A stretch of DNA of 50,550 nt from IMG/VR virus record IMGVR_UViG_3300027719_000008, positions 1-50,550 of that record. One strand, written 5' to 3'. The position numbers were made by a program, and so were the translations under genes. Shown one piece after another: positions 18,189-50,550 of the stretch (position 1 is the first letter of the stretch; each line of letters opens with the position of its first letter). The stretch is from a virus (lineage: Duplodnaviria; Caudoviricetes). The notes under the pieces are model-generated. The model was not told the DNA's origin. It saw only the letters and a list, made by a program, of their open reading frames with translations, and did no database searches.

Positions 18189-18276
18189 GATTGCATCCTC
18201 TTTTCTGTTTATTGCGCTTATCCATAAGCGCTTTTTGTATGGCCATGGTGTTAGGCATGACCATAGGAAAAGCGTT

Positions 18277-18663: not shown

Positions 18664-18699
18664 ATCACACCTCACCGAAAAGAATGCCGTCAAGCCTGT

Positions 18700-19790: not shown

Positions 19791-19797
19791 TACGACA

Positions 19798-19826
19798 AAG
19801 CCCCCTGAAATGCCTCCAAGGGGCTT
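19798..19826 (-). terminator. Hairpin ending the second minus-strand operon
   Basis: AAGCCCC...GGGGCTT inverted repeat just past stop at 19855. Confidence 0.45.
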
Positions 19827-19854
19827 GTAGTGTGTCGTTCGTCTCGAAAACCGG

Positions 19855-20046
19855 CTATTTCCCCGCGTTGGCATCCTTCACGGCCTGATATGCGGCATCC
19901 TCGATGGCTTTCTTGACCATCATGCCCCAGGTGGGGTCATTGGTTTGCTCCCGGAAGAATGCGAGCGTGGCCTCGTAGATGGCCTCCTTGACAGTCTCGG
20001 GGTCAATGGTGGTTCCGATAGAGTAATTCTCGTTGTCTCCGCTCAT
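19855..20046 (-). CDS. Hypothetical protein
   Basis: AAAGGA SD; 63 aa. Confidence 0.6.
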   Translation of the reverse strand: MSGDNENYSIGTTIDPETVKEAIYEATLAFFREQTNDPTWGMMVKKAIEDAAYQAVKDANAGK

Positions 20047-20067
20047 GTTATGTTCCTTTCTTGCGTC

Positions 20068-20661: not shown

Positions 20662-22855
20662 TTTATAATCCAATAGAGTCCAAGGGCGATGACGATCAGC
20701 ACCCACAGTGGGCATTTCAGGCGAAAGATCACATTGTCGTCATTCATGGCTTCTCCCTTCACACGCCCATGCGGATGATGTCGCCCAGAAGCTTCTGTTC
20801 GCGCCACCCGCGCCACGCTTGGATGGTTTCGTAGAGTCGATGTTTCGACTCGTCGCTGAGGTTGAGGTATACAGGGAAGCAAATATGGATATGGGCCTCT
20901 GTGTCCGGCGATGCAATGGCGGCATAGGGCTCGCCGGGGGCGAAGAAGGTATCGGCGCAATCCCACAAATGGGGATACTGCTCGATCTTCTCGATGATGG
21001 CGTTTACGATCTTCGCGGTGGTGGATGTGTAGTTCATGGTGTTATCCTTTTCGAGAAAACGGTTCATGGAGTACCGCACAGAAAAACATACAGAATGATC
21101 ATGATGAATATCACAGGGATGATGGCATCGTCGTCGTTCATGGTTCATCCTCCCGCACCGCCAGCTTCACCAACTCGGCGACGATGGCTTCGGCGCACTC
21201 CAGCGCCTGACGATGCGCGTTTTCAAGACTATGCACATAGGCAGCATGGTATTCCGGAAGCGGTTGCCTCTCGGCATAGTGCAGCTCGGAGGTCAATGCT
21301 GATGCGTGCTGCATGGCGTTGGCGAGATTGATGCTCATTCCATCCCCTTCCGGTATCGGTCACACACATGCGTGATATCGGCCCATGCGCTCTGGCAATA
21401 CTGCCCGGACCGGCGCATTTGGTCCAGCACGAATTGCTTTTCAATCGACATGTCGGTAGTCACCAACGCAACCCTGTCGTATGCTTGCCGCATCCAATCC
21501 TGTTCATCTGGGGTCAATTGGCACCACGGCACCATAGCGATATGGCGAACAGGAATCAGGCTGCACATTACATAGCGGCCATCATCGTCGTCCTCGTCGA
21601 TCTTGGCATTGGCGCACGTTCCGCAGCATTGCGCGCTGCGATAGTTGTGTTCCGCGCTCATGTGTTACTCCTCCCCATAATCTCGTCGATCTCTCGTTGA
21701 TACCGTTCATCCCAATACTGCGTGCAGGCGGAACAGAACCTGGCCCCGTCCTCGCGCATGGCTATCCCACAATGGCGGCACACGTCCGGATCGTACCCAT
21801 GCTCTCGAATGCAGGCGTCGGCTTCCTCGCCGGTCATGCGGACAAACGCATCGGGTTCGCACTGGACGCAGCAGATGAGGCGATCATGATCGTCGGCACC
21901 GTGCAGATAGACGCCGTTTGCATCGCAGGTGAACCAGACACGATCCCATGCTCCATCGTCGAACAGCGCCAGGGCATCGATGGTTCCGCCAGCATTCTCC
22001 ACAGACTGGATGGGTGGGTATTCCCAATGGACATCAGTGCGTTTGATCATGCTGATCCTCCCACCGTTCCGGCTCCTGCACGCTGGCGACCGTAATGCTG
22101 GCTTGGAACCCGCAATCGCAGAGAGCTTCGTACTCGTGGCCTTGGTTGAAAAACTCAATATCGTCGCCGCAGTTGGGGCATGTGATGGTCATCGTAGTCT
22201 CTCCAATCCAGCAATGACATGACGCGGGTCTTGCTTCCCGCACAGTTGATACATCGTCCGCGACTGCAACCATCGCTTGTAGGCGCGCCAGACGAACCGC
22301 TTGTCGAACCACGAGAACGTGGTATTCAAAGGCTGATTGATATCAAACCCCCAATATCCATGTTCAGTCCATAGCTTGACTCCGCTTGCGTGATCGACGG
22401 TAAAATGTGTTTGCGTCCATGTCTCCGGTTCGACATCGAAGTGATGGACGATATCATAGGCCAGCGGCGTATGCGTGAGCCATGTCATCGCATATCCTCC
22501 GGCAGCTCATAGGCGTCCTCCATGCGAATCCACCTTTCAGCGCCTTCGACGATGCATGCAACATCGGGAGCTTTTGTGCAAGAAAGTGCTCCATTGGACT
22601 GAATCGCCAGCATTAGCTCCCGCGCGAGTTCCAGAACGCGGTCGTGGCGGTTGTAGACATCGGCTCCGGCACTCACACCATAGTCTCTCATGACTTCCTC
22701 CCGTTCAGTCGCTCGTCAATCATTGCCTCTAAAGCATCCCTACGCCGTTGCCTCGCCACGCGCCACGCGACCTCCATCGGATAGAGAATCGCAACGGCAC
22801 CACAGAGTGTCATGCCGATTGCCATTCCGCAACAGAAAGAATCCCAATGAATCAT
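20658..22855 (-). CDS. Cluster of small hypothetical genes (20658..20747, 20759..21037, 21138..21338, 21335..21661, 21658..22050, 22034..22192, 22189..22488, 22485..22691, 22688..22855)
   Basis: Minus-strand ORFs, most with ATGA overlaps; several Cys-rich. Confidence 0.6.
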
Positions 22856-23040
22856 GACTTCCTCCCATTCTCCGGGCATCCGTTGCGAATCCAGTCCATG
22901 ATCCCCTGTTGGCTCCACCGCCGCGAGCGCCCCAAGAGGATCGACTGCGGCAGCTTTCCGGCAGCGGCCATCTTTTGCACATGGCGCGCGGAGACGGAGA
23001 GCATGGCGGCAACCTGCTTCACATTGAGTAATTCCGGCAT
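22852..23040 (-). CDS. AlpA/excisionase-like HTH protein
   Basis: LLNVKQVAAMLSVSARHVQKM...GKLPQSILLGRSRRW. Confidence 0.85.
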   Translation of the reverse strand: MPELLNVKQVAAMLSVSARHVQKMAAAGKLPQSILLGRSRRWSQQGIMDWIRNGCPENGRKS

Positions 23041-23093
23041 ATCCAATCCTTTCGTCACGAAATCCAACTAAACGGTCTAGCGCACTTCTGTTC

Positions 23094-23236
23094 GTATACA
23101 CGCACGGTACGCTGCACGCAAGAACAATCCCGGAATCCAGCGAAAGTGATATTGAGACGCAGTATCAATAAGGTTGTGTTGGCGAAAATAGTCCTTGACA
23201 TGACCTTGCGGTAAGCGTATTGAGACTCAGTATCAA
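23094..23236. promoter_or_regulatory. Divergent promoter region with two operator-like near-palindromes
   Basis: + strand TTGACA (23195)-N17-TATTGA; - strand TTGCGT-N17-TATACG; TATTGAGAC(G/T)CAGTATCAA at 23150 and 23218. Confidence 0.6.
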
Positions 23237-23254
23237 CAAGAATGGGTGGACTGC

Positions 23255-23683
23255 ATGGCGCGCAGATCAGTGAAAGGCTCCGGCTCGGTCGTCAAAGTCG
23301 AGGGATGCGAAGAGATTGAACGCATTCTCCGCGACAATGAGGCCATTGAGACGATTGTCCGCAAGTGTGTGATGCTGGTGAAGCGGATCAGTGACAAGAG
23401 CCTCGATGATCCCGAGTCCATGCGGATTGCCAAGCTCGGATTGGATGCAGCCAAGGTCGTGGTGGATATCCACAAGTTCCATGTGGGCGTCAGCACCAAG
23501 ACCGTGGAAAGCGAGCGGATGTTGGAGGATGGGCTGGAAGCGGAAGATGACGAAGCTCTCCTGTCCATGATCCGCCAACTGGAGACAGCGACCGGCGAAA
23601 AGGTCATTGATGCCAAAGGGGTGATTGTTGACGGCGACACTGGAGAAGCCCACGACGAAGAAGCGGAAGAAATCGCAGGCTGA
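23255..23683 (+). CDS. Putative terminase small subunit
   Basis: Helical, acidic-tailed ORF immediately upstream of TerL. Confidence 0.6.
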   Translation: MARRSVKGSGSVVKVEGCEEIERILRDNEAIETIVRKCVMLVKRISDKSLDDPESMRIAKLGLDAAKVVVDIHKFHVGVSTKTVESERMLEDGLEAEDDEALLSMIRQLETATGEKVIDAKGVIVDGDTGEAHDEEAEEIAG

Positions 23684-25373
23684 CGAGGTTGCCCTGCGAC
23701 TGGAAGCCGCGAAGCGTGTTCTCGAACGGCGCAAGCTGCGGGAATGGGTTCTGGCGTCAACGCTCAACTTCTCACGATTCGTCGGCGTCAATCCATACCA
23801 CTTCAAGCGCCAAGAGGTGATGTACGATCCCGATACGGGGTTCTATCCGTGGTGCCCCTATGCCGAGCGCGCGGCAGCGTATTTCGACCGCCCCGGCGTG
23901 GATGAACACGGCAATGCCATCGCCAAGCCCAAGTATATCGTATTCATCGCCCGTGACCACTTCAAGACCACCATCGCCGAATGCGCTCTCGCGCGTGAAA
24001 TGCTGGCCCACCCGGAAAAGTCGTTCATGATCCTCTGCGATAAAGAGGACAAGGCCACCGCGCGGCTTGCTCGCGTGACGAGTTTGCTGCTCCACCCGAA
24101 GGTGCAAGACCTCTTTTCCGACCGTGTTTTCCCCTACTCCAAAGACTATTACACCTCCGGCGCGGTCTACATGAACCGTCCGGGCGACGGCTTGAACAGT
24201 CGCGCCCCGGCGCTCATGGCCGACGGTATCCTGTCCGGTTTGGCCGGATTGCATTTCAACGGCGTCGTCTGGATGGACGACATCGTGACGGATAAGAATT
24301 ACAAGCAGCAGGAAGTGCAGGGCCAGTTGTGGATGAAGATGCAGCAGGTGATGTCGAACGTGGCCTCTCCGGGATGCCATATCTGGGTGACAGGCACGCG
24401 CTATCAGATGGGCGATGCCTATCGGAACATCCTCGATCACGACTCCCCCATCAAAACCGACATCGTTCCGGGCCATATGGTCCTCGGATGCACCGAACCG
24501 GATGGTCATGGTGGCAAGCGCCCCCTCAACTTCCTGCGATTCTGCATTGATATTGATGACGTGAACCGCCCCGTGAAATACCGTGGCGTCAAGTTTGAGA
24601 ACATCATCCGCGAAAGCCTCCTCGTGAAGAAGCAATCCACGCGCCCCGTCAGCGAATGGTACGCGCAGATGGAGAATAACCCAACTTCCGAGGATAATGC
24701 GTTCTTTGCGGCGGATGACTTCGCGCATGATGTCAACTGTTCCGCCGAAAAGCTGGTAACGTGGCTCGGATGTCCGGAAGGCATCGCCATGATGGGTGAG
24801 AACCAGGGTGGATTGCAGATTGCCGTCCTCGGCGACCCGTCGTATGGTGGCGCGGATAGTGCCGTCCTCCTCGTCGTGGCCTGCGATAACAAGGGCCGAC
24901 TCTACCTGATGAACGGCATGGCGGCTCCGCAGAAAGACTTGCGCGCCTACTTCATGCGGGCGCTCGAATGGCGCGACAAGTATGGATGCACGAAGCCCTT
25001 TGGCATTGAGATTCACGCCAAGGAGAGCAGCCGGACGCTGTGCGAGGACATGGCGCGCGGCTTGGGTGTGCGGCCCCCGCTGTTCTTCAAGCTGACGGAC
25101 AATAGCATCAAATCGAAGGAAGCGCGCATCCAAACGCTCGCGTCCTATCTCGTGGGCGGCAAGCTCTGGTTCTGCAACGACTTCCCGGTGGAACTGCGGC
25201 GTCGGATGCAGGATGAAGCGATGACGTTCCCGAACGGCGTGCATGACGACATTATCGACACGCTGGCGAATGCAGTCCAAGTCTTTGACGTTCGGCGCGG
25301 TTCCGGCAAACCGGTGTGTCTGACCCCGGCGCTGAATCGTGTTCCCCGTGGCGTGCGGAGGTTCCTGGCATGA
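23625..25373 (+). CDS. terL: Terminase large subunit
   Basis: ARDHFKTT Walker A-like, GLHF..VWMDD Walker B, GTRY, GDPS and HDDIIDTLA nuclease motifs. Confidence 0.9.
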   Translation: MLTATLEKPTTKKRKKSQADEVALRLEAAKRVLERRKLREWVLASTLNFSRFVGVNPYHFKRQEVMYDPDTGFYPWCPYAERAAAYFDRPGVDEHGNAIAKPKYIVFIARDHFKTTIAECALAREMLAHPEKSFMILCDKEDKATARLARVTSLLLHPKVQDLFSDRVFPYSKDYYTSGAVYMNRPGDGLNSRAPALMADGILSGLAGLHFNGVVWMDDIVTDKNYKQQEVQGQLWMKMQQVMSNVASPGCHIWVTGTRYQMGDAYRNILDHDSPIKTDIVPGHMVLGCTEPDGHGGKRPLNFLRFCIDIDDVNRPVKYRGVKFENIIRESLLVKKQSTRPVSEWYAQMENNPTSEDNAFFAADDFAHDVNCSAEKLVTWLGCPEGIAMMGENQGGLQIAVLGDPSYGGADSAVLLVVACDNKGRLYLMNGMAAPQKDLRAYFMRALEWRDKYGCTKPFGIEIHAKESSRTLCEDMARGLGVRPPLFFKLTDNSIKSKEARIQTLASYLVGGKLWFCNDFPVELRRRMQDEAMTFPNGVHDDIIDTLANAVQVFDVRRGSGKPVCLTPALNRVPRGVRRFLA

Positions 25374-31160: not shown

Positions 31161-31784
31161 ATGGCAACATTCGCGTCATTGCGTTCTCAGCTTCTGGGCA
31201 TGGAAGGACATGACCGTTCCGATATGGCCTCGCTGACGCTGGACGCGAACCTGGCGCTCAACGCCGCCTATCGGGAACTCTGCCATATGCAGCCGTGGTG
31301 GTTTACCGAACAAACTGAAACCATTACTGCGGCAGGTGGTTACCTGATTCTGTCTCCAACGACAATCCATGTCCGCGATGTCTACGATGCCGACGGCAGC
31401 CGTGTCGTGCATCGGACGCGCGGGGGGCAGATTCGATGGGCGGACAACCTGTCGTATCTGGAGACAACCTCGTGGGCGATTGCCGGATACGATACGGGCA
31501 CCAATGCCATGCGGTTACATCTTGAACCCGCGACCGCAGGTGTGTATACTGTCCTGTCAGCGTTCATGCCGACGGAGATGGCGGCAGACTCCGATGTTCC
31601 GCTCGGGCCTCCGCTGGTTGGGGATTTCATCCTGTGGTCAGCACGGCAGGATCGCTTGAAGCGGGATGAAGAGCGGCAGTATCTGGACATGACGGCGCAG
31701 CAGTACCGGCAGCAATACCTCAACGAATTGAAGCACATGCACGCGAAGTTGTCGCGAGAAGATGGGCCGTTCTTTGCGAGGTGA
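31161..31784 (+). CDS. Head-tail adaptor / tail tubular protein A-like
   Basis: MATFASLR...LNAAYRELCHMQPWWF...DSDVPL; position. Confidence 0.7.
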   Translation: MATFASLRSQLLGMEGHDRSDMASLTLDANLALNAAYRELCHMQPWWFTEQTETITAAGGYLILSPTTIHVRDVYDADGSRVVHRTRGGQIRWADNLSYLETTSWAIAGYDTGTNAMRLHLEPATAGVYTVLSAFMPTEMAADSDVPLGPPLVGDFILWSARQDRLKRDEERQYLDMTAQQYRQQYLNELKHMHAKLSREDGPFFAR

Positions 31785-31786
31785 GC

Positions 31787-34138
31787 ATGTCAACCGAAAA
31801 CCCCGAAGAACCTGACATCCGGCAAGCGCGCTTCGGTGGGATCAACAAAGCCCTGCCGATGTACAATGTTCCGTTGGGGATTTTCCCTGACGCGCGGAAC
31901 ATGGTCACGTATGCCCGTGAAGGGTATATGGAGACGCGACCGGGGTATCAGGTGGCCTCGCCACGGGTGGAGGTCGATCCCTTCGCCATGCTTGGCGGCG
32001 TGGAGGGTGGCCTCGTGATCGTCGTTCCGGGTGATCCGACCGACGAGGACTTGGAAGGCGACTTCGTGATGTCGGTGGAGGACTCCAACTCTACCATCAT
32101 GTATTACAAGACCGGCAAGTGGTATGGGTACGACCCAAGCGCCACGATGATTCAGGCGACGGGAAGCCTCCTGTTCACGACGTATGGCGGCGACGACCTC
32201 GGCATTGAAGCCGACGAGTATACATGGCACCATTACGTCCTCTGGGGCACCGGCGACCATACCACAACCACGGATGTCACCTATACCGATCAGGCGGCCT
32301 CCAAGACGCTCACCTTCATCCTGCCGCCGGACGATTCCTTGGGGTCGTATGGCACGCTCGTCTCGTCATGGGACCGGGGCGACGGCACGATTCTCAACGT
32401 CTACTACTACGGCACGGCCACCATCACAGCGTCGGGCGTCGATACGAACGACGACACACGCACCGTCTCGAAAACGTTTGCCATCCTCTACTTCCCCGGC
32501 AGCGTTGGGGGTGGTGGCGGAGGTGGCGGTGGCGGCACTGAGGAGGACGAGACGGAGCCGGAGGACGAAGAAGAGGACGACGACGATACAGACGATGGGG
32601 ATGACGGCGAGGATGGCGACGACGGGGATGATACCGACGAACCGACCATCTCGATCATCACGCCGCCGACCATTACGCCGCCCGACTCGCCGCCGATTGT
32701 CCCGCCGGACGATCCTGATGAACCCGATGAACCGGGGGGTGGCGACGACGAGGACATCAAGACCGACAAGATTCAGTTGATTGTGACGGCTCCGGAGACG
32801 GTCCAGCACAACGGCTACTTCTCCTTCACGGTGACGGCGAAGAATCTCAAGACGGGCATGATGGTGGCGCTGCCGGGCGTTCCGACATTGCGCGCCTATC
32901 TGCCGACGGATTACATGCCGGGGTTGAAAACGTCCAGCACCTATTACACCGAAGCCCGTTATCTGATCGACACCGCCGCAGCGACAGGGGTGTTCAGCAA
33001 CGGAAACACCGTCTGGACGATGACGAATGCGCGGTTCAACCTGCCGGAGACGCCGGACGATTCGTATGACCTCGTGACGAACGTGCGCGCGGTCATCTCG
33101 GCGACGATCCTTGGCAATAAGAATTACCTCCAAGGCGGCACCATGACGAATGTGGTGCGCCCGATTCCGACGCTTTCCGTCAATCTTCACACGCTGGACC
33201 TGGATGGACTGGATGGCCGCGAGTATGTCGGCTTCACCGGCACGAATGCCTACTCCTCCACGATCATGCTGTGGGTCACGCAGACGGCGATGGCAGGCGT
33301 GGGCGGAACGTTCATCCCGTTCGACATCGTGCTGTATGCCGCGTCGATGGTGGGGGCATCCGCAACGATGACGTGGGGCAAAGCCTGCCCCGGCCCGACA
33401 TGGGTGGAAGGATCGAGCGTGTCACTGGGCAGTACCGCCAGCGGATACCCGTCGATTCCGTCTGCTGTCTTTGAGTCGGGCGACGGCGTGGCCCTCGTCA
33501 AGCTGACAGTGGCATGGAGCGGCACGGCGGCAGATCCGGACAATGGCATCTGGCCGTGGTATGTCGATGACAATTGGACGGGCTTTGAAGTGTTCGCCAT
33601 GCTGCCGTCCTATCTGGAGCAGAATCGCGCAAGCCTGAGCAATGACGCCTTCAGCGTGACCAAACAGACATCCTCCGGGGTGGCGTTTGCCAGTGCGCGC
33701 CAAATCCTTCTGGGGATGCAGTATGCGAAGGTTGGCCTCCCGGACGATTACGTGAGCGTGGACGAGGATTTCTATCAGGAATACGTGTGCGCATCCGGAC
33801 AGACGTGGGCTGTGGATGCCGTCCTGTATGACCCGGATCATGAAGTCTCGCGGCGCATTACGGGCGGCTTCACCGTGGTCGGCGGCACGGACACCTATGC
33901 CATGACCGCTGGCGTCATCAATGACACGGCGACTCCGGCGATTGCGATCCCGTCCGGCGAATGGCTGCAATCTGACGACTTGGACGAGGACTTGGTAACG
34001 CCGCGCTTGGGCGACCGCGACTTGTATATCTACGGGTATGCGCCGGGGAAGTGCTTGGCGACGACCTATGACCTCTATCGCGAATGCGGTGCAACAGACG
34101 TTGACAAATACGACACGTACCGCGAGTGCGCCGGATAA
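31787..34138 (+). CDS. Tail protein with nozzle-like N-terminal peptide, acidic/Gly/Pro linker and beta-rich domains
   Basis: FGGINK...DARNM...GYMETRPG; poly-Gly and D/E tract at about 32505-32760. Confidence 0.6.
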   Translation: MSTENPEEPDIRQARFGGINKALPMYNVPLGIFPDARNMVTYAREGYMETRPGYQVASPRVEVDPFAMLGGVEGGLVIVVPGDPTDEDLEGDFVMSVEDSNSTIMYYKTGKWYGYDPSATMIQATGSLLFTTYGGDDLGIEADEYTWHHYVLWGTGDHTTTTDVTYTDQAASKTLTFILPPDDSLGSYGTLVSSWDRGDGTILNVYYYGTATITASGVDTNDDTRTVSKTFAILYFPGSVGGGGGGGGGGTEEDETEPEDEEEDDDDTDDGDDGEDGDDGDDTDEPTISIITPPTITPPDSPPIVPPDDPDEPDEPGGGDDEDIKTDKIQLIVTAPETVQHNGYFSFTVTAKNLKTGMMVALPGVPTLRAYLPTDYMPGLKTSSTYYTEARYLIDTAAATGVFSNGNTVWTMTNARFNLPETPDDSYDLVTNVRAVISATILGNKNYLQGGTMTNVVRPIPTLSVNLHTLDLDGLDGREYVGFTGTNAYSSTIMLWVTQTAMAGVGGTFIPFDIVLYAASMVGASATMTWGKACPGPTWVEGSSVSLGSTASGYPSIPSAVFESGDGVALVKLTVAWSGTAADPDNGIWPWYVDDNWTGFEVFAMLPSYLEQNRASLSNDAFSVTKQTSSGVAFASARQILLGMQYAKVGLPDDYVSVDEDFYQEYVCASGQTWAVDAVLYDPDHEVSRRITGGFTVVGGTDTYAMTAGVINDTATPAIAIPSGEWLQSDDLDEDLVTPRLGDRDLYIYGYAPGKCLATTYDLYRECGATDVDKYDTYRECAG

Positions 34139-42443: not shown

Positions 42444-43220
42444 ATGGCTGTCAAGACAAGTCTCAATCCGACCGGCGGCGGATATGTGCCCTCCGGAAGC
42501 TTTGTGTGGAACCAGCAAACGTCGGGCCGGAAGATCGGAACCGGCGTCAACTCCATGCAGAACTACTACCAGCAATACCTCCAGCAGATGCAGCAGGCCC
42601 AGAGCTGGCAGCAGCAGCAGGCGGCGAACGCCCAGAAGCAGGCCGCAGGGTACATCGAACAACTCTCCCCGAAGATCGAAGGATACCTCCAGCAGATGCA
42701 GGGGAACTACGACAAGGGGCTGGAGGCCATGCAGAACGCCGGGGGCGACTCCAGCTATCTCAAGAAGGCATGGAGTATGGCCCGTCAAGGTGTGGCGAGT
42801 CCGGGGTGGGGGGATCAGACCGTCCGCCAGATGAAGAACGCGGCATCCGCCCAAGGGAGCGCGCAGCAGGCATCGGCCACGCGTCAACTGGAACGCTCGA
42901 TGTCCGGACGCGGCATGGCTGGACCGGCGGCTGACTACCTGAAAGCGTCCTTGAAGAACCGCTTCGGGATGCAGACGGCGGCTGGATTGCGGAACGTCGA
43001 TGTCAATGCGGCGACCTATGCGGCGGATTCCAAGAAGCAATATCTGGGCCTGGCGGGTCAGTACGCTGGCGACCTCGCGCGCATGGGGCAGCAGAACCAG
43101 ACGAACCTGGCGAACTATTATCAGCAGTACAACCCGCTGAATTGGCTCCAGCAGACGCAGAGTATTCTATCCCCGTTGCAGACCATCGGCTATGGCGCAG
43201 GCCAAGGCTTGGCTTGGTAA
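42444..43220 (+). CDS. Putative internal virion (ejection) protein
   Basis: Q/A/G-rich helical sequence, SGRGMAG; position before giant protein. Confidence 0.65.
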   Translation: MAVKTSLNPTGGGYVPSGSFVWNQQTSGRKIGTGVNSMQNYYQQYLQQMQQAQSWQQQQAANAQKQAAGYIEQLSPKIEGYLQQMQGNYDKGLEAMQNAGGDSSYLKKAWSMARQGVASPGWGDQTVRQMKNAASAQGSAQQASATRQLERSMSGRGMAGPAADYLKASLKNRFGMQTAAGLRNVDVNAATYAADSKKQYLGLAGQYAGDLARMGQQNQTNLANYYQQYNPLNWLQQTQSILSPLQTIGYGAGQGLAW

Positions 43221-43231
43221 GGAGGCTCCTG

Positions 43232-44425
43232 ATGAGTGCCAATTTTGCGGGTGTTCCGGCCCTGTTGGGCAACATGCAATATACGGCGGGCAATATCTCC
43301 GGCGTCAATGCCGGGATTCAGTACCGCGATGCCATGCGCATGAAGCGGTTGCAGTCGGCAATGGAGCTGGCCGCACAGCAGCAGCAGCAGATGAACGCGG
43401 ATCGCGCGCGCAGGGATTCCTTGCGCCAGTACAGCGACCAGCAGGCCCGTGCGAACCGGCAGGAACAGTACGGGATGCAGCGTGACGCGATGGCCGACCA
43501 GTGGAAGGAACGGCTCTACAAAGAGAGCTTGGGCGATAAAGCCTACGCGCGCGAACGCGACACCGTTGGCGACACACGCTATGCCGATGCGACCGCCTAT
43601 GCCCGTGGCCGTGATACCGTGCAGGACACGCGCTATGCCGACGAGATGCAGCGTGCGCTGGAGAATCAGGCGTATGGCCGTAGCCGGGACACGCTGGCTG
43701 ACACGCGCTATGACACCGGACAGCAACTGGCGCTTGAGAATCAGAATTATCAGCGTGGGCGCGACACCGTGCAGGATCAACGGTATGCCGACACGCGCGC
43801 CTACGCGATGGGCCGCGACACGCTCATGGACAAGCGGTACCAGGAAAACCAGAACTTCGTCATGGGCGACCGGTGGGCCGACAATGCCCGTCAGTGGACA
43901 TCGACGCTGCTCAATAACCCGTTCACGCAGGCCGCTGCCAGTTGGCTCCGGCAACCGCGTGATGCGAGGGCGCAGAGGCCGATGTCGGTATCGGACGCCA
44001 AGGCTCTTGCTGAGATGGAGGCACAGGCTCGCGCCGGTGGCGAAGGGTCGGATGTGGCGCGCGCGACTCTCCAGAATCTTGGGCGACCGGCTCCGCTTGA
44101 CATGACGCCAATCGAAAGCCGCAAGTCTGGATGGCTGAATCGGGCATGGAACGCATTCAGCTCGGCCAACCCCGCAGGGTCCATCCCGTATCTTGCGGAA
44201 GGACATAGCGAGAATTGGCGTCAAGCGTATACCGGGTACTCTACCGAGGATGCTACCAAGGAGCTGCAAGAGATCGACGCGCGGCTCCAACAGGTGTTGG
44301 ATCGGTATGACGCGAAGGGCAACATCCGTCCCGGCATGGAGTTGACCAAGGACGAGGAGCGGTATCTGGAGGAATTGCAGCGTCGAAAGCAGGCGATTGA
44401 AGATGGGCTTTCCGCGACCTTGTGA
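43232..44425 (+). CDS. Putative ejection protein with RDT(V/L)xDxRY repeats
   Basis: Five repeats; Q/R-rich coiled coil. Confidence 0.65.
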   Translation: MSANFAGVPALLGNMQYTAGNISGVNAGIQYRDAMRMKRLQSAMELAAQQQQQMNADRARRDSLRQYSDQQARANRQEQYGMQRDAMADQWKERLYKESLGDKAYARERDTVGDTRYADATAYARGRDTVQDTRYADEMQRALENQAYGRSRDTLADTRYDTGQQLALENQNYQRGRDTVQDQRYADTRAYAMGRDTLMDKRYQENQNFVMGDRWADNARQWTSTLLNNPFTQAAASWLRQPRDARAQRPMSVSDAKALAEMEAQARAGGEGSDVARATLQNLGRPAPLDMTPIESRKSGWLNRAWNAFSSANPAGSIPYLAEGHSENWRQAYTGYSTEDATKELQEIDARLQQVLDRYDAKGNIRPGMELTKDEERYLEELQRRKQAIEDGLSATL

Positions 44426-44437: not shown

Positions 44438-47400
44438 ATGCCATTGACCCCGGAAGAGGTGCTTGGATTACGCGCAAGGCTGTCCTCGAAGCCCAACTAT
44501 GCTGTTCCGGAAGCCTCATTTGGTGAGTTTATTGCCCCAATTGTGGCCCCGTTGACACTGGCCGAGCGCGCCGGTGGCCTCGTCTACAACAACCTTGGCC
44601 TTCCGCTCATGGGTGGAGCCATGCGTGCCGTCGGCATTGATGCGGATAGCGTAGCAGGGCAGGCGCAGTTGGATCGCGAGACATCGGTGAACCCAGACGT
44701 GACCTCCATGCGCGGCTGGATAGGATTGCTTGGCGTCGGGCGCGAAGGCGACACCGGATATACGAACGTCGAGACGGGCGCACCAGTGCGGGGCGCGAAC
44801 ACGCTGGAAGCGATTATGAATGCCCAAGGCGGCGATGTCGAGGGCTTCTATCGTGATTACGGAGTTCCCGGCCAAGTGGCTATGACGGTCGGCTCCATGG
44901 GGCTTGACCCTCTCAATGCAACCGCCATCGGTGGTGGCGTCAAGGCCGCATGGCAAGCCAGCAAGATTCGCGCCGGACTCCGTGGAATCAAAGGCGTGGA
45001 TGCAGCAGCCGATGCACAGCGTGCGGAATACCTGGCCGAGCAGCTTGGCAATCTCTCACCGCAGGGGCAGTCGGGCCTCGAACGCTTTGGCCGAGCCCTG
45101 ATTGGCGAGGAACAGGCCAGCGACTTCTTCCAGCAGGGCCGTGTGTTCAACCGGACGCCGGAGTTCAACATGGCTGGCGAGGTAGGGCCGGAGACGTTGC
45201 GCTCACGCATGGGCCTGAATCTCATGGACCGGCTTGCAGAGCGCATGTACCCGGATGCAAGCGCGGACTTCCTGCAACGGGCCGCTGATGCTGATGCGGA
45301 ACGCATTGCCGGGATTCGCTATGATCGCTGGCGTGATGTCCATCGCCCCGTCCCGGATCGTCTCCAGCAGATTCCGGAATGGGGAGGCATGGCCATCGAG
45401 AATGTCGATCCACGCATGATGCGCGTCATCAATGACACGATGCAGAATATGGACATGCCGAGTCAAGCGGTTGTTCCGCCGAGCCGTCAGCTTCCATTTG
45501 AGAACTCAGCAGCCGCCGACCTCTCAGCCAGGATGCAGCGCATGATGTCACCCGAAGAGCGCATGGCATGGGAGATTCCGGAATATGTTCCGGATACCAG
45601 CATGGCCGCGCGCGAGGATTTGGCCGCACGGATGCGCCGATTCCAGCAGCCTGAGCCAGAACGCACGCCGTGGGAAGCTCCTATTGAACAGACTCCAGCT
45701 CCGGTCCAAGAGGCCGTATCCGCACCCGCCCTTGACCTCGCAGCCCGGATGCGCCGCGCCATGACGCCCGCCAACGTCGAGGTGGCTCCGGTCCGACCGA
45801 CCGCGCGGACACCATGGGATGCCGCCGAGGATGTCCCGGAGCCGGTTCGCGCCGAAGTGACCATGCCGGTCGCGGAAGCGCCCAAGATCGCAGAGACGCC
45901 AACGCAGAAGCTAGCGCAACCCAAGACTGCCGAACAGCTTGCGAAAGAGGCGGAACTGGAGGCGCGCGCCAAGGCTGTAAATCCAGAAGCCAAGGCCAAG
46001 CGCGATCCGTATGCCGACATTGACGAAGCCAGTATCAAGAAGGCATCGGATGTACTGATGTCCGAACGTGGGCAGAAGAATCTCAATGCGCTCGCCCGTC
46101 AGTATGGGTTGGAGCCGGACGAGATGATGAGTGAGTTGATCATGCCGTTGGCGAAGCGTGCCGCCACGTTTGATCCGAAGCTTGGGAAGGATGAAGCGAC
46201 CTATCTTGCCAACCAGATGTCGTATGCCGCCAAGGATGTGCGCCGCAAGCAGGATGTCATTGCCGCGCGCGAGGCCAGCTACAACAAAGAGGTGGGTGAA
46301 GGCGACGACGCTATGCAGATCGTGGATACAATCGCCGACCCGACAGCCGCAACACCCGCACAGCAAGCATTGCGCGGTGAAACGGAATCCGCCTTCATGA
46401 AGCTCGTGCGATCCAGCAAGCAGCCGGAACGTGCGGAGTCGATTGTTGCCGCCCTGACGGACCAGATGGATACCAAGGGCCGGATGAATGTTGCCGCACT
46501 GAGCGAGACGACGGGCTACACGCCATCGACGATCCAGCGGGTGCTGGACGATCTCCATGCGCGCGCGATGGATGCTGGCATTGAGCCTGATGTCAAGTTC
46601 AAGACCGTCCGCAAAGCCTTTGTCCGTGGCGTGGCAAAGGATGATCTCTTGAAAGCCCCCGGCGTCAAAGGCGTCGAGGAGCTTGGAGATAATGACTTCC
46701 GAGTGACGTTCAAGAACGGCAAGACGATTGACGTGCGCACGAATGCGAACATCGAATTGCGCGCCGCTCCGGACTTGGTGGCTGGCCGCACGATCACCGT
46801 GGCCGACCCAAAGACGGGCCAACAGATCAACGTGGACTACACGCGCTTTGCGGACCAATCCACGATCAACCACGAACACGTCCATGTTGCGCGGTCGATG
46901 GGCCTGTTCACCGATTCCGAGTGGTCCAAGCTCGTCTCGACCTATGCCAAGAACATCACGGATGAAGTCCGGATGGAGGAAGCCGTCGCCAGTGGACTGG
47001 AGAAGATCGGTGGCACATTGGCACAGCGGATCAAGGAGTTCCTGGGAAAGCTCTACGAGGCCATCACAGGCGACACTTCCGCATGGTCAACGCAGGGCCG
47101 CTGGCGCAAGGGCGAGGTGTTCCGGCGCGAGAAGGTGGGCGCGGCCCGGACGGATGGTGTGCGGTATCAGACGCAGGCTCCCGACTGGCGCACAACCGGC
47201 GATGCCATCCAGAATATTGCCAAGAAGATGGAGACGGCTGGCGATGCTCGTGACATGGAACCGGCTGGAGTGCTCGCAAGCGCCAAGCGTCTCTTCACCA
47301 AGGAAGGCTTGAAGGCGATCGAGGATAAGCTGGCCCCGCAACTGTGGGATGCAGCCCATATGCTCATGACGCGCGGCTTCCGTCCGCTGGAGGATATCCT

Positions 47401-50065
47401 CTCTCCGGCCCAGAAGATCACGGGCAAGGCCGACATTACTGGACAAGGCAAGGGCGGAGCGGGACTGGCCGAAATGCTGTTCCGCACGAAGGAAGGCAAA
47501 GCAGGCCGCTTGCAGGCCGTCATGAAGGGCGAGACGCCGCTCTCTGTGTACATTGGGAACGAGAAGAAAGTCTACTATCAAGGCAACGCCGTCGAGAACA
47601 TCCTTGGTCCGGCCAAGCAGTTCCTTGGGAAGGGCGCGAGCGAGGCCGACTTCCAAGCTATCATCCAGATGGCCGATGTCGCCGGGGTGAGCCAGCGGAT
47701 TCGGCAAGAGCGCGACCTGATGCAGGCGGCGATTGCACGCATTGGTGAAGGCAAGGGAACCGATGCCGACTTCACGCGGTTGGCGAAGATGGGATACGAG
47801 AAGCCGTCGGTACTCCGCGAGGGGTTGCAGGCGGACCTGGCTGGAACCATGCAGCAGCTTCGGACGGATGCGGCGAAGTGGGAAAAGACCATGATGCTGC
47901 GTTCCGGAACGGACTACGAGGATGCCCTGAGCGCCATTGAGGAGTTCAAGGCCAAGGGGATGCTGACGGAGAACACGGACAGCCCCGGCGTGCTGGACAA
48001 GGTGCTGGAGGCCGAGCGGAAACTCAGCAAGGCGAAGCTGGAATACGCGCGCGACAAGGGGATCATCTCGCAGGAAATGGCCGACGCCTATGCTAAGACG
48101 GGTGACTATTACACCCCTCTTGAACGCGTATTCGACGACCTCGAAAAGATGTCCGGTGGCAAGGGAAGCGCCACGGGGCAGTTCACGAATCAGGCACTTG
48201 GCAGCGAACGCCTTATCAAGTCGCCGATCAGTAGCGTCTTTGAAAGCCTCAATAAGTTGGTCCGACTGGCCGACGAGAACGAAGTCTGGCGCACGCTGAC
48301 GGATGATATTGATGACGCGAAGAAGCTGGTTGCCGCGCAAAAGGAAGATGCCAAACATCTCATTGGTGCCGAGAAGGGTGTTCCTGAGAATAAAGTTCTC
48401 CCTGATGGTGCCATTGCGGAGAATGAATCGTACATCGCCGAGACGGAGAAATACATCCAGCAGGTGAGTGGCGACGAACGCATGGCGAAGGATGTGATCC
48501 CTGTCATCCGGGATGGCAAGACGACGTATTGGCGCTTCGTGGACCCGGAGGCGCGCAAGACCTATGCTGCGATGCAGATGCACGCTCCATCGGGGTGGCT
48601 GGAGAAGGCGGCACGTTGGCCGTCCCAGGTGTTGCGGAAGTGGCTGGCTGCCTCCCCGCGCTTTGCCGCGTTCAATACGACGCGCGACACCTTCATGCGT
48701 CCGATCATCTCGGAACACGAAGGCAGCAAGATGTCGGATGTGTTGATGCAATGGACCGACAAGGCCAAGTATGAGGAGATGGACGAAGCGTTCATGCGCT
48801 CCGGCGGCTCACAGCAGGCCATGCTGAATGATCTGGAGGACGCCTACAAGGACGACATGAGCGGGTTCATCCGGAAGGCCGTCGGCACAAAAGGCACGAT
48901 GGTGGGCCTCCCGCAAGACCTGATCAAGTATATGAAGGGCGGATTCGATAAGGTGACGGCGCTGACGGGCAAGGGTGAAAAGCTGAATCGCTTGGCCGAG
49001 TACAAGGACGCCTACGAATACGCGATGAAGAACATCCCGAACATCACGCAACAGGAAGCGGAGACGTATGCTGCATTCCATAGCCGTAACCTCTTGGACT
49101 TCGCGCAGGCTGGAACGTTCATCCGGGCGATTAACAAGTATGTGCCGTTCACGAACGCCGCTATCCAAGGCTCGCGCGTGATGTTCCGTGCTGCCAAGAA
49201 TCACCCGAAGCAATTCGCCAAGCAATTCGCCAAGCTGATCGTGGCCCCGTCGATTGCGACCTATGGCATTGCACAAGCGGCAGGCCGTGAAGAGGAATAC
49301 CGTGCGCTACCCGCGTACCGGCGCGACTTCTTCTGGAACATACCGATTCCCGGAACGAAGCTGTGGTTCGCCATCCCGAAGCCGTTCGAGTTGGGCGTCC
49401 TCGGCACCACGTTCGAGCGCACCGTGGACTACGCATGGAAGGGTAACTTCGACGAAGCGTTCGCCGGTCACGGTGGATCGCTCGCCAAGGGCATGATTCC
49501 AGTCGATGAAGCCGCGTTCCTTGGTGCATTCCGTCCTGTTGTCGAAGTGCTGGCGAACCGTAATCTGTTCTACGATCAGCCGATCATTCCCTATTGGGAA
49601 GAAGGCTTGGATGTCCGCCTCCGCAAGGGCGCGCAGGGTGGCAGTCGCATCGGCAAGACCATGCAAGACCTGTTCAAGGTGGATTCCCGCAACGTCGATC
49701 ATCTCATTGGCGCATTCTTTGGCGACTATGGCCGACTGGCAACAAACGTCGGGAAGATCGGGCAGGATGTCGAGAACCCCATGACATTCGGGAAGTCGAT
49801 CATGAAGGCGTCCGGATTCGTGCGCGAGACATCACCGTGGGAGATTCAACCCGCGAAAGAGGCCATGCGCACGCAACAGCGCCTCGGCGTGCAGGCCACG
49901 AAGCCGTCGAAAGCGTTCCGCGACATCCTGAAAGAGGCGCAGGCCGGGACGCGAACGATGAAGGAAGCGATTGAAGCATCGCGTGCGGAGAAAAATCGGT
50001 TGTCGCAAATCACGATTGAGCAACGCATTAAGGAGATGTTCGAGAAATCGAAAAAGAAAAAGTAG
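44438..50065 (+). CDS. Giant polyvalent/ejection protein: sigma-like domain, HExxH metallopeptidase-like motif, LPD38-like C-terminus
   Basis: FDPKLG..ATY and HTH; NHEHVH; YVPFTNAAIQG; FAIPKPFELG; EVLANRNLF..QPI. Confidence 0.8.
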   Translation: MPLTPEEVLGLRARLSSKPNYAVPEASFGEFIAPIVAPLTLAERAGGLVYNNLGLPLMGGAMRAVGIDADSVAGQAQLDRETSVNPDVTSMRGWIGLLGVGREGDTGYTNVETGAPVRGANTLEAIMNAQGGDVEGFYRDYGVPGQVAMTVGSMGLDPLNATAIGGGVKAAWQASKIRAGLRGIKGVDAAADAQRAEYLAEQLGNLSPQGQSGLERFGRALIGEEQASDFFQQGRVFNRTPEFNMAGEVGPETLRSRMGLNLMDRLAERMYPDASADFLQRAADADAERIAGIRYDRWRDVHRPVPDRLQQIPEWGGMAIENVDPRMMRVINDTMQNMDMPSQAVVPPSRQLPFENSAAADLSARMQRMMSPEERMAWEIPEYVPDTSMAAREDLAARMRRFQQPEPERTPWEAPIEQTPAPVQEAVSAPALDLAARMRRAMTPANVEVAPVRPTARTPWDAAEDVPEPVRAEVTMPVAEAPKIAETPTQKLAQPKTAEQLAKEAELEARAKAVNPEAKAKRDPYADIDEASIKKASDVLMSERGQKNLNALARQYGLEPDEMMSELIMPLAKRAATFDPKLGKDEATYLANQMSYAAKDVRRKQDVIAAREASYNKEVGEGDDAMQIVDTIADPTAATPAQQALRGETESAFMKLVRSSKQPERAESIVAALTDQMDTKGRMNVAALSETTGYTPSTIQRVLDDLHARAMDAGIEPDVKFKTVRKAFVRGVAKDDLLKAPGVKGVEELGDNDFRVTFKNGKTIDVRTNANIELRAAPDLVAGRTITVADPKTGQQINVDYTRFADQSTINHEHVHVARSMGLFTDSEWSKLVSTYAKNITDEVRMEEAVASGLEKIGGTLAQRIKEFLGKLYEAITGDTSAWSTQGRWRKGEVFRREKVGAARTDGVRYQTQAPDWRTTGDAIQNIAKKMETAGDARDMEPAGVLASAKRLFTKEGLKAIEDKLAPQLWDAAHMLMTRGFRPLEDILSPAQKITGKADITGQGKGGAGLAEMLFRTKEGKAGRLQAVMKGETPLSVYIGNEKKVYYQGNAVENILGPAKQFLGKGASEADFQAIIQMADVAGVSQRIRQERDLMQAAIARIGEGKGTDADFTRLAKMGYEKPSVLREGLQADLAGTMQQLRTDAAKWEKTMMLRSGTDYEDALSAIEEFKAKGMLTENTDSPGVLDKVLEAERKLSKAKLEYARDKGIISQEMADAYAKTGDYYTPLERVFDDLEKMSGGKGSATGQFTNQALGSERLIKSPISSVFESLNKLVRLADENEVWRTLTDDIDDAKKLVAAQKEDAKHLIGAEKGVPENKVLPDGAIAENESYIAETEKYIQQVSGDERMAKDVIPVIRDGKTTYWRFVDPEARKTYAAMQMHAPSGWLEKAARWPSQVLRKWLAASPRFAAFNTTRDTFMRPIISEHEGSKMSDVLMQWTDKAKYEEMDEAFMRSGGSQQAMLNDLEDAYKDDMSGFIRKAVGTKGTMVGLPQDLIKYMKGGFDKVTALTGKGEKLNRLAEYKDAYEYAMKNIPNITQQEAETYAAFHSRNLLDFAQAGTFIRAINKYVPFTNAAIQGSRVMFRAAKNHPKQFAKQFAKLIVAPSIATYGIAQAAGREEEYRALPAYRRDFFWNIPIPGTKLWFAIPKPFELGVLGTTFERTVDYAWKGNFDEAFAGHGGSLAKGMIPVDEAAFLGAFRPVVEVLANRNLFYDQPIIPYWEEGLDVRLRKGAQGGSRIGKTMQDLFKVDSRNVDHLIGAFFGDYGRLATNVGKIGQDVENPMTFGKSIMKASGFVRETSPWEIQPAKEAMRTQQRLGVQATKPSKAFRDILKEAQAGTRTMKEAIEASRAEKNRLSQITIEQRIKEMFEKSKKKK

Positions 50066-50222: not shown

Positions 50223-50236
50223 GAATGGAGCGTGCG

Positions 50237-50550
50237 ATGAATAAGATTGAGTTGGATGCGATTATTGCAAAGCACTGGAAATGGTTATGCAGTGAGGATG
50301 GCGGCGAAAGAGCCGACCTGAGTTACGCCGACCTGAGTTACGCAAACCTGAGTTCCGCCAACCTGCGTTCCGCCAACCTGCGTTACGCAAACCTGAGTTA
50401 CGCCGACCTGAGTTCCGCCGACCTGAGTTACGCAAACCTGAGTTCCGCCAACCTGCGTTACGCAAACCTGAGTTCCGCCGACCTGAGTTACGCAAACCTG
50501 AGTTCCGCCAACCTGCGTTCCGCCAACCTGCGTTCCGCCAACCTGCGTTA
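50237..50550 (+). CDS. Pentapeptide-repeat protein, 5' part (continues at 1..431)
   Basis: ATG at 50237 after GGAG: [40 protein letters not shown]..., A(D/N)L(S/R)(Y/S) repeats open to window end. Confidence 0.9.

What the first reader, a model, noticed from the sequence alone, without database searches (positions are those of the whole stretch)
46030..46580. Sigma-70-like domain embedded in the giant putative ejection protein
Seen: residues about 535-710 of the 1875-aa ORF read ARQYGLEPDEMMSELIMPLAKRAATFDPKLGKDEATYLANQM...ASYNKEVGEGDDAMQIVDTIADP...P...MNVAALSETTGYTPSTIQRVL. Known: this ordering matches sigma region 2 (xFDPxxG..TY), region 3.2 (SLD..GEDD..L.D.I.D) and the region 4 HTH. LPD38/HExxH polyvalent proteins at this genomic position are thought to be delivered with the DNA. 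Inference: the virion may inject a sigma factor or sigma mimic to redirect or block host RNA polymerase before phage expression starts. The nearby HEHVH motif might release it by self-cleavage.
Basis: partly seen in the sequence, partly recalled or inferred. Interest (0 to 1): 0.85.

Follow-up and report, generated by a model that had tools for sequence, protein, structure and literature searches.

The report
Sigma-like module in giant phage protein
A freshwater phage carries, inside its 1875-residue cysteine-free virion-type protein, a very diverged stretch that resembles part of a bacterial sigma factor, so it may bring an RNA-polymerase-docking piece into the cell with its DNA, but this is untested and this copy is a weak example.

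Summary
The quoted residues are there: aa 532-715 of the 1875-aa ORF 44438-50065 (+). The sigma likeness exceeds chance but stays below every curated cut-off. NCBIfam TIGR02937 gives E about 1e-4 with three different fragment boundaries. Seven of 8 and 8 of 8 family hits are sigma factors, against none in six control fragments of the same protein. A sigma profile built here scores 24.6 bits, against a maximum of 13.8 in 2000 shuffles. In the ESM Atlas, 22 of 30 neighbour clusters carry sigma families.

The firm anchor is region 3.1/3.2-4.1-4.2. The helices ahead of it fit region 2 under ECF-type models and region 3.0-3.1 under group 1-3 models. Only one such domain fits, so a complete sigma is not shown. 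No sequence relative of this segment was found, both AlphaFold models were poor, and Foldseek found nothing significant.

The host protein is a phage-type LPD38 polyvalent protein with no cysteine. Its relatives carry other cargo domains at the same place. The phage is temperate-like, has no RNA polymerase gene and has sigma-70-type promoters.

Injection, polymerase binding and HEHVH self-cleavage are all untested. This scan noted the same theme before on other DNA, in at least 8 other genomes. It was not found in print in five full-text searches.

The parts
44438..50065 (+). Giant ORF, 1875 aa, no cysteine; phage-type polyvalent (LPD38) protein, last large gene of the virion block
45473..46027 (+). 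aa 346-530: Pro/Glu/Ala/Gln-rich (50%), glycine-free linker ahead of the sigma-like module; it holds three ~35-aa repeats (LSARMQR / LAARMRR ... PWE/PWD) between aa 364 and 470
   Evidence: composition, repeat positions
46058..46273 (+). aa 541-612: helical domain. ECF-type models read it as sigma region 2.1-2.4; group 1-3 models read aa 564-612 as region 3.0-3.1. The register is unresolved
   Evidence: For region 2: TIGR02937 model 18-72, E=0.0029 and PRK13919 E=0.0081 on this piece alone; Pfam Sigma70_r2 E=0.053; hhalign to region 2.1-2.2, P=0.0018. For region 3: and TIGR02393 E=7.5e-5
46274..46357 (+). aa 613-640: acidic region-3.2-like linker (SYNKEVGEGDDAMQIVDTIADP...), the best-matching element
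   Evidence: Aligned to the region 3.2 columns of all group 1-3 profiles and of the PDB chain 6pfv_A
46358..46573 (+). aa 641-712: region 4.1/4.2-like helices with an HTH (MNVAALSETTGYTPSTIQRVL)
   Evidence: The hhalign alignment runs through region 4.2 and TIGR02937 reaches model position 154/165. On its own it matches only generic HTH families (MarR_2 E=0.0028, HTH_IclR E=0.0029). This was the most confident stretch of the AlphaFold model, with 10-residue block means of pLDDT 73-87 over aa 651-730
46871..46885 (+). HEHVH (aa 812-816), the only HExxH; it holds 3 of the protein's 13 histidines; no peptidase family match
47909..50062 (+). aa 1158-1875: conserved C-terminal module shared with other polyvalent proteins; includes LPD38 (aa 1618-1778 = 49289-49771)

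Best explanation
Residues about 541-712 are a strongly diverged module derived from the sigma-70 family. It is one cargo cassette of a cysteine-free, LPD38-type polyvalent virion protein of a temperate-like short-tailed phage.

Shown:
- The sequence likeness to sigma factors. It is anchored on regions 3.1/3.2-4.1-4.2 and preceded by a single helical domain.
- The polyvalent-protein architecture, with relatives that carry other cargo at the same place.

Inferred:
- The giant protein is packed in the capsid and leaves it with the DNA.
- The module then docks on host core RNA polymerase. It would use the beta flap and RNA-exit channel through its region 4 and 3.2 look-alikes, and the beta' clamp helices if the first domain is a true sigma-2.

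Only one domain precedes the linker, and I see no counterpart of the paired tryptophans of region 2.3. The phage also has ordinary sigma-70-type promoters. I therefore think a docking, competitor or partial-sigma role is more likely than a self-sufficient promoter-melting sigma.
For: - NCBIfam sigma hits are robust to the fragment boundaries and absent from six control fragments.
- The full-length protein also gives only sigma families: TIGR02393 E=0.0013 and NF006147 E=0.052.
- The only PDB sequence hit for the 240-aa and 196-aa fragments is a sigma factor (6pfv_A, E=0.16-0.2). For aa 535-612 the best of 2 hits is RpoH (8hkc_E, E=0.54).
- In the ESM Atlas, 22 of 30 nearest clusters carry sigma Pfam families, with scores of 0.95-0.96. 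The neighbouring aa 725-960 gives no family, with 30 of 30 clusters unnamed.
- My own profiles score 15.2 bits (shuffle maximum 9.2) and 24.6 bits (shuffle maximum 13.8). None of 2000 shuffles reached the query either time.
- hhalign to the 83-sequence profile aligns 134 columns, aa 563-701 onto regions 3.0-4.2, with P=1.3e-4 and probability 54%.
- Architecture: LPD38 is present, and the 21 homologues align only to aa 1158 onward.
- Four relatives carry PBECR5, InPase, ddrB-ParB, RadC, LPD3 or a tail lysozyme ahead of LPD38.
- Cysteine: 0 in 1875 aa and 0 in 6 of 6 relatives checked. The six other structural proteins have 39 Cys in 3813 aa, so about 19 would be expected here (my arithmetic).
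- Delivery: passages of PMC7824862 describe polyvalent proteins as injected with the DNA, and phi24B gp47 was found in virions by proteomics.
- No ORF over 372 aa lies among the early genes, so no phage RNA polymerase is evident.
- A diverged relative in a wastewater run changes codons 553-569 with 6 synonymous and 7 non-synonymous changes, 4 of them hydrophobic swaps.
Against: - Every family score is below its curated cut-off.
- TIGR02937 also gives 28-34 bits to two non-sigma HTH proteins of E. coli K-12. A sub-threshold score is therefore not proof.
- The whole-genome search with TIGR02937 or TIGR02393 finds nothing in the window at E<=10.
- PHROGs lists no sigma family for the region, 0 of 9 families; the best is a transcriptional repressor at E=0.0034.
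- The region-4-like part alone matches only generic HTH families.
- No sequence relative of aa 500-760 turned up in 1.84 billion representatives, apart from an HTH-repeat protein. The 5.8-billion collection (near and shorter lengths) and viral, metagenome and phage collections also gave none.
- The single-sequence AlphaFold model is poor (pLDDT 59). Foldseek gives 0 matches at E<=0.001 in PDB and BFVD, and the top PDB rows are mostly MarR-type regulators.
- The sub-domain register is ambiguous.
- Sigma-70-type promoters with a shared upstream word lie at 8530-8551 and 23183-23204. No phage-specific promoter word recurs in more than 3 of 26 intergenic stretches.
Confidence: 0.4

Rival explanations
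1. It is a complete two-domain (ECF/SigH-like sigma2-linker-sigma4) sigma factor. It is injected with the DNA, is perhaps freed by the HEHVH domain, and directs host core polymerase to phage promoters.
For: - TIGR02937 aligns aa 553-703 end to end with model positions 18-154 of 165.
- aa 535-612 alone hits only ECF-type sigma models.
- Pfam Sigma70_r2 is the only family listed for aa 521-621.
- The ESM Atlas neighbours are 161-195-aa phage sigma factors carrying Sigma70_r2.
- Free-standing ECF-like sigma factors are common in phages: 107 records matched E. coli RpoE.
Against: - Group 1-3 profiles place aa 564-612 in region 3.0-3.1 with equal or better scores.
- In the alignment the query has a gap opposite the tryptophan pair of RpoD, RpoS and RpoH.
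- No recurrent phage-specific promoter word was found.
- Strong sigma-70-type promoters are present.
- HEHVH matches no peptidase family.
Confidence: 0.15
2. It is not sigma-derived. It is a generic helical domain plus a winged-helix/HTH DNA-binding domain, acting for example as a regulator or DNA-end binder, and its sigma likeness is convergent or chance.
For: - Pfam's best hits are HTH_IclR and MarR_2 (E=0.003-0.005).
- The only hit among 1.84 billion representatives is a protein of repeated HTH units, aligned to aa 663-706.
- PHROGs gives a transcriptional repressor.
- Most of the top Foldseek PDB rows (12 of the first 22 listed) are MarR-family winged-helix regulators, though at E>=1.9.
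- All sigma scores are sub-threshold.
Against: - The signal is strongest outside the HTH, in aa 564-662 (24.3 bits). It survives when the HTH is removed (aa 535-612).
- The three blocks stand in the canonical order and spacing.
- Control fragments and shuffles do not reproduce the signal.
- ESM Atlas agrees.
Confidence: 0.25
3. The sigma-like module acts in the producing cell rather than after injection. It could act in late transcription, or link polymerase or DNA to packaging, while the giant protein is made and before it is packed.
For: - The gene lies in the late virion operon, so the protein is abundant late in infection.
- No separate late sigma gene is detectable.
- The reference list of PMC6669764 cites a reported interaction of T4 terminase with the late sigma gp55 (title seen only).
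Against: - Relatives carry cargo typical of early host-conflict functions (nucleases, pyrophosphatase, RadC, lysozyme).
- The absence of cysteine fits passage out of the virion (inference).
- The virion-block promoter region looks sigma-70-type with operators.
Confidence: 0.1

Closest known systems
Phage-type polyvalent proteins with a C-terminal LPD38 domain (Iyer, Burroughs, Anand, de Souza, Aravind 2017, PMC5512222), such as phi24B gp47
   Same: - A giant single polypeptide at the end of the virion block.
- LPD38 above cut-off.
- Variable cargo ahead of a conserved C-terminal module.
- No cysteine.
- gp47 was found in virions and proposed as an ejection protein (passages).
   Different: - The cargo here is sigma-like.
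- The main text of the 2017 paper has 0 occurrences of 'sigma'. Its supplements could not be seen and may list more domains.
- No recognised MPTase, LPD1 or LPD5 domain here.
Free-standing phage-encoded sigma-70-family factors, such as phiEco32 gp36 = SU10 gp32 and the ECF-like sigma genes of crAss-like phages
   Same: - Small modules of sigma regions used by phages that lack their own polymerase (passages of PMC4281155).
- 107 phage records match RpoE.
- The ESM Atlas neighbours are such proteins.
   Different: - Those are separate genes expressed after entry and pass family cut-offs.
- This one is embedded in a virion-type protein and is sub-threshold.
- It may lack a true sigma-2 domain, and no matching promoter motif was found.
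Virion-packaged RNA polymerases that are injected (N4 vRNAP; phiKZ and AR9 virion polymerases)
   Same: The idea that transcription machinery travels in the particle and acts before any phage gene is expressed (passages). The N4-like virion polymerase is listed as a phage-type polyvalent-protein domain.
   Different: Those are catalytic polymerases that do not depend on the host enzyme. Here only a specificity- or docking-type piece would be delivered, and it would have to use the host core enzyme.
T4 late-transcription factors gp55 and gp33 (partial sigma functions on separate proteins)
   Same: A precedent that phages use incomplete sigma pieces. Passages of PMC7824862 describe a minimal single-HTH sigma and gp33 binding the beta flap.
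   Different: These are not virion-delivered. No sequence relation to them was tested here. That gp55 is sigma-2-like is recalled, not taken from a call.

Membership tests
Sigma-70 family (TIGR02937; Pfam Sigma70_r2/r3/r4) | Score at or above the curated family cut-off | tested here: not met
   TIGR02937 scores 21.6-22.5 bits against a cut-off of 42.9. Sigma70_r2 scores 12.3-13.8 against 24. Sigma70_r3, r4 and r4_2 are not listed at E<=10.
Sigma-70 family | Sigma-2 domain (regions 2.1-2.4: binds the beta' clamp helices, melts the -10 element) | tested here: inconclusive
   ECF-type models and hhalign put aa 541-606 in region 2. Group 1-3 profiles put aa 564-612 in region 3.0-3.1. The query is gapped opposite the tryptophan pair of RpoD, RpoS and RpoH.
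Sigma-70 family | Acidic region 3.2 linker between the domains | tested here: met
   aa 613-640 align without large gaps to the region 3.2 columns.
Sigma-70 family | Sigma-4 domain (4.1 helices and 4.2 HTH) | tested here: inconclusive
   hhalign and TIGR02937 run through it. On its own, aa 640-725 matches only generic HTH families.
Sigma-70 family | Binds core RNA polymerase and confers promoter-specific initiation | not testable with these tools
   This needs biochemistry. The search for a recurrent phage-specific promoter word found none in more than 3 of 26 intergenic stretches.
Phage-type polyvalent proteins (Iyer et al. 2017) | LPD38 domain and several unrelated domains in one giant polypeptide, with cargo that differs between relatives | tested here: met
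   LPD38 has E=1.5e-21. Homologues share only aa 1158-1875. All four relatives scanned carry other cargo domains.
Phage-type polyvalent proteins | Zincin-like peptidase (MPTase) domain that could process the protein | tested here: inconclusive
   Only the HEHVH motif is present. No family matched in Pfam, PHROGs, PDB sequences or ESM Atlas.
Phage-type polyvalent proteins | Packaged in the virion and delivered with the DNA | not testable with these tools
   Indirect evidence only: gene position, no cysteine, phi24B gp47 proteomics.
MarR/IclR-type winged-helix regulators | Score at or above the Pfam cut-off | tested here: not met
   MarR_2 scores 18.2 against 27 and HTH_IclR 17.8 against 22. Foldseek matches have E>=1.9.

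The most novel reading that the evidence does not exclude
The sigma-like module stays tethered to the ejected giant protein at the site of DNA entry. There it captures host core RNA polymerase and loads it on the incoming genome end. Transcription, and perhaps transcription-driven pulling-in of the DNA, would then start before any phage protein is made. This would be a delivered promoter-selection or polymerase-recruiting subunit, and together with the similar modules this scan noted in other giant virion proteins it would form a so far undescribed class.
Probability: 0.1. Interest if true: 0.85.

Novelty: new variant of a known kind. Interest (0 to 1): 0.5.

Why it matters
Phages are known to inject whole RNA polymerases (N4, phiKZ) and enzymes that modify the host polymerase (T4 Alt). 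A delivered sigma-like piece is not described in the papers I could search. If it is real, it would give a temperate, polymerase-less phage a way to act on host transcription at the moment of entry. It would also add a transcription module to the cargo list of polyvalent proteins.

This copy is an orphan with sub-threshold scores. Its value is mainly as one more, more diverged, instance of a theme the scan has met repeatedly. It also flags that some such modules may be partial sigmas.

Tried and rejected
- **Complex prediction.** aa 530-725 was folded with E. coli beta' 240-335 and beta 825-945 as a stand-in host. The score was 0.09 against a mark of 0.34, so there is no verdict and it counts neither way.
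- **AlphaFold of aa 501-740, no alignment.** pLDDT was 59 and pTM 0.35.
- **Foldseek on that model.** PDB gave 0 matches at E<=0.001, best E=1.9. BFVD gave 0 at E<=0.001, best E=0.19. Three of the 50 rows listed there are named sigma factors (ranks 3, 5, 11) but are not significant.
- **AlphaFold of the C-terminal module with 12 sequences.** pLDDT was 46.4. I did not run a fold search on it because the model is too poor.
- **Searches for relatives of the segment, all empty.** These were. The representative search gave only an HTH-repeat protein.
- **Host search.** The terminase in genome contigs and the portal in phages gave nothing, so the host is unknown.
- **Check that sigma modules recur in giant ORFs.** A scan of viral contigs with an RpoS/RpoD/RpoH alignment returned 80 loci. 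I checked 23 of the 80 and the open frames were 19-710 aa, none giant. The best 80 are cellular-like sigmas, so this says nothing about embedded, diverged modules.
- **Sequencing runs.** No RNA holder is listed. Two freshwater runs beyond the two possible source samples hold the gene nearly unchanged (shares 0.97 and 0.60). Two wastewater runs hold 80-95% relatives as short contigs only. At 80% likeness neither shows depth in the bins 46318-46693 (X6 also none in 46130-46317), and that gap is no finding. I analysed only the 40 differences shown out of 363. One contig carries a compensating indel pair at 46097/46100, so codons 553-554 are uncertain.
- **Whole-genome family searches in the window.** TIGR02937 and TIGR02393 found nothing. 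For PF00940 the controls rang nowhere, so it is uninformative.
- **Consensus promoter scan, 14000-24000.** It found 12 sites against 9.9 +/- 3.2 expected, so there is no enrichment.
- **My gene-calling heuristics** are crude. For example, they break the terminase gene. I used them only to list intergenic stretches.
- **Literature.** Five full-text searches and passages of six papers gave no description of a sigma domain in a virion or polyvalent protein. Supplements were closed and may list domains I could not see.
Full report
**What the window is.** The window is a whole IMG/VR virus record of 50,550 bases, classed as having direct terminal repeats and 100% complete.
- PHROG matches show a temperate-like gene set: RecE- and RecT-like proteins, SSB, a repressor, a primase/helicase, a methyltransferase, a RuvC-like resolvase and a serine recombinase.
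- The virion block holds a large terminase, a portal/adaptor protein, a major head protein, an internal-virion-protein-like gene and a tail fibre with a podovirus-type N-terminus.
- No ORF longer than 372 aa lies among the early genes, so no phage RNA polymerase is evident.
- The giant ORF 44438-50065 (+), 1875 aa, closes the virion block.

**The observation.** The coordinates 46030-46580 correspond to aa 532-715, and all quoted strings are in the translation. Pfam finds one significant domain in the whole protein, LPD38 at aa 1618-1778 (E=1.5e-21). PHROGs finds phrog_9854, of unknown function, at aa 1336-1731. HEHVH at aa 812-816 is the only HExxH and holds 3 of the 13 histidines.

**Is the sigma likeness more than chance?** NCBIfam on aa 501-740 lists 7 families, and all 7 are sigma factors. 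The best is TIGR02937 sigma70-ECF (E=1.3e-4, 21.6 bits, model positions 18-154 of 165). The full-length protein lists 2 families, both sigma (TIGR02393 E=0.0013, NF006147 E=0.052). I repeated the search with other boundaries and with controls.

| Fragment | TIGR02937 or best hit | Sigma families among those listed |
|---|---|---|
| aa 530-725 | E=9.2e-5 | 7 of 8 |
| aa 545-712 | E=6.8e-5 (and TIGR02393 E=7.5e-5) | 8 of 8 |
| aa 535-612 | E=0.0029 (and PRK13919 sigma E, E=0.0081) | 2 of 2 |
| aa 640-725 | BlaI and a CRISPR-associated HTH, E about 0.12 | 0 of 2 |
| six 240-aa control fragments | best E=0.022 | 0 of 3 (four fragments list nothing) |

Other lines of evidence agree:
- Pfam lists Sigma70_r2 as the only family for aa 521-621 (E=0.053) and generic HTH families for aa 621-721.
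- phmmer against PDB sequences returns a single chain for the 240-aa and 196-aa fragments, a sigma factor (6pfv_A, E=0.16-0.2). For aa 535-612 the best hit is RpoH (E=0.54).
- In the ESM Atlas, 22 of the 30 nearest clusters for aa 535-720 carry sigma Pfam families, with scores of 0.95-0.96. The tool states that shuffled proteins reach 0.95 about once in 100. The adjacent aa 725-960 gets 30 of 30 unnamed clusters.

**My own profiles.** A profile of the six E. coli sigma-70-family factors (fetched) scores aa 530-725 at 15.2 bits. None of 2000 shuffles reached that (maximum 9.2), and 379 windows cut from the polyvalent proteins reached at most 10.4. A profile of 83 group 1-3 sigma segments (79 from IMG/VR loci plus 4 from E. 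coli) scores it at 24.6 bits. Again none of 2000 shuffles reached it (maximum 13.8), and other windows reached at most 4.8. hhalign against that profile aligns 134 columns, aa 563-701 onto regions 3.0-3.1-3.2-4.1-4.2, with P=1.3e-4 and probability 54%.

**What speaks against it.**
- Every score is under the curated cut-off.
- In E. coli K-12, TIGR02937 also gives 34 and 28 bits to two non-sigma HTH proteins.
- The whole-genome search tool finds nothing in the window with TIGR02937 or TIGR02393.
- PHROGs lists no sigma family for the region (0 of 9).
- The AlphaFold model without an alignment is poor (pLDDT 59), and Foldseek finds nothing significant in PDB or BFVD.
- No homologue of aa 500-760 was found in any collection, so conservation cannot be used.
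- The one hit among 1.84 billion representatives is a protein of five HTH repeats that aligns only to aa 663-706.

**Which sigma regions?** The acidic stretch at aa 613-640 and the following helices align to region 3.2 and 4.1 under every profile. The 70-odd residues ahead of it are ambiguous.
- ECF-type models (TIGR02937, PRK13919, the SigH-type NF006147), Pfam Sigma70_r2 and one hhalign run (aa 541-589 onto region 2.1-2.2, P=0.0018) read them as sigma-2.
- The group 1-3 models (TIGR02393, RpoH, RpoS, FliA/WhiG), 6pfv_A, my 83-sequence profile and hhalign read aa 564-612 as region 3.0-3.1, running without a break into 3.2.
- The scores are about equal: 22.5 against 22.4 bits.
- There is room for only one of the two domains. 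The module is therefore either ECF-like (sigma-2, linker, sigma-4) or a sigma-3/sigma-4 piece without sigma-2.
- In the MAFFT alignment the query is gapped opposite the tryptophan pair that RpoD, RpoS and RpoH show in region 2.3.

**The carrier protein.**
- The 21 homologues found align only to aa 1158-1875.
- The four relatives I scanned carry PBECR5, InPase, ddrB-ParB, RadC, LPD3 or a tail lysozyme ahead of LPD38.
- The C-terminal module occurs in 50 GenBank phage records, mainly of Vibrio, Bacillus and Pelagibacter phages.
- The protein has no cysteine in 1875 aa. The two genes just upstream (427 and 258 aa) have none, and neither do the 6 relatives checked. The six other structural proteins have 39 in 3813 aa.
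- Passages of Iyer et al. [quoted passage not shown] Passages of PMC7824862 describe polyvalent proteins as injected by certain tailed phages with their DNA.
- Passages of the phi24B preprint report the LPD38-bearing gp47 in virions by proteomics.
- Delivery of this particular protein is thus inferred, not shown.
- The HEHVH region matches no peptidase family.

**Promoters.**
- Two intergenic sites share a 22-nt word containing TTGACA, at 8530-8551 and 23183-23204.
- By eye, the first has a near-consensus -10 16 nt downstream and a palindrome. The second lies between two copies of an inverted-repeat operator, ahead of the virion block.
- These look like ordinary sigma-70 promoters under repressor control.
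- An exact-word search of 26 intergenic stretches found no 7- to 9-mer in more than 3 of them.
- The phage therefore does not visibly depend on a sigma of its own.

**Occurrence.** Freshwater metagenome runs hold the gene nearly unchanged. Two wastewater runs hold 80-95% relatives as short contigs. In one such contig:
- Codons 553-569 show 6 synonymous and 7 non-synonymous changes, 4 of which exchange hydrophobic residues.
- Codons 448-478 of the linker show 11 synonymous and 2 non-synonymous changes.
- The contig also replaces 148 bases (45912-46061) with 166 others, just ahead of the module.

This is thin evidence from a single contig, and only 40 of the 363 differences were shown to me. It is consistent with a coding region under constraint.

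**Reading.** I take the segment to be a diverged sigma-family module carried as cargo by a polyvalent virion protein (about 75% for the homology, about 70% for delivery). The most likely action is docking on host core polymerase. A full promoter-selecting sigma is possible but less likely. A generic HTH domain remains a serious rival.

**Prior notes and print.** This scan noted the same theme earlier on other DNA. Eight follow-up notes shown, from 28 findings, describe sigma modules in giant virion proteins. These are unchecked AI notes. They raised my prior but are not evidence. I did not find the theme in print.

Noticed in passing
window 50225-50548 and 3-431: The gene just downstream of the giant ORF is a pentapeptide-repeat protein (A[DN]L[SR]x units, 15-nt period) that runs off the end of the record and resumes at its start. 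The 'direct terminal repeat' of the record may be only this internal tandem repeat (1-274 against 50238-50541, 61-90% identity). If so, the assembly may have broken inside the gene.
   Followed up: partly
window 42444-43220 and 43142-44425: The two ORFs directly upstream of the giant gene (258 and 427 aa) also have no cysteine, unlike the six other structural proteins with 3-13 each. They are candidate further ejection proteins. 43541-43792 holds three to four 75-nt (25-aa) repeats.
   Followed up: partly
window 45527-45847 (aa 364-470 of the giant protein): There are three ~35-aa repeats (LSARMQR / LAARMRR, then PWE/PWD) inside the glycine-free Pro/Glu/Ala/Gln-rich linker ahead of the sigma-like module. 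They could be short binding motifs.
   Followed up: no
window 8530-8600 and 23140-23230: Two sigma-70-type promoters share the word CGAAAA(A/T)AGT..TTGACATGAC. The second is flanked by two copies of an inverted-repeat operator (ATTGAGAC.CAGTATCAA). The first is followed by a TATAGTTAATAACTATA palindrome and a small ribbon-helix-helix-like gene starting at 8597 (read by eye).
   Followed up: partly
window 32546-32754: There are 9-nt tandem repeats encoding an Asp/Glu-rich tract inside the 785-aa ORF 31781-34138, which has no PHROG match.
   Followed up: no
window 45912-46061: A wastewater relative replaces these 148 bases with 166 other bases, just ahead of the sigma-like module (table 5). The junction between linker and module thus seems to be a variable spot.
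   Followed up: no
protein P0002 (not in the window): This is a 665-aa protein from the representative library with five tandem ~75-aa winged-helix-like repeats. It was the only hit of the sigma-like region.
   Followed up: no
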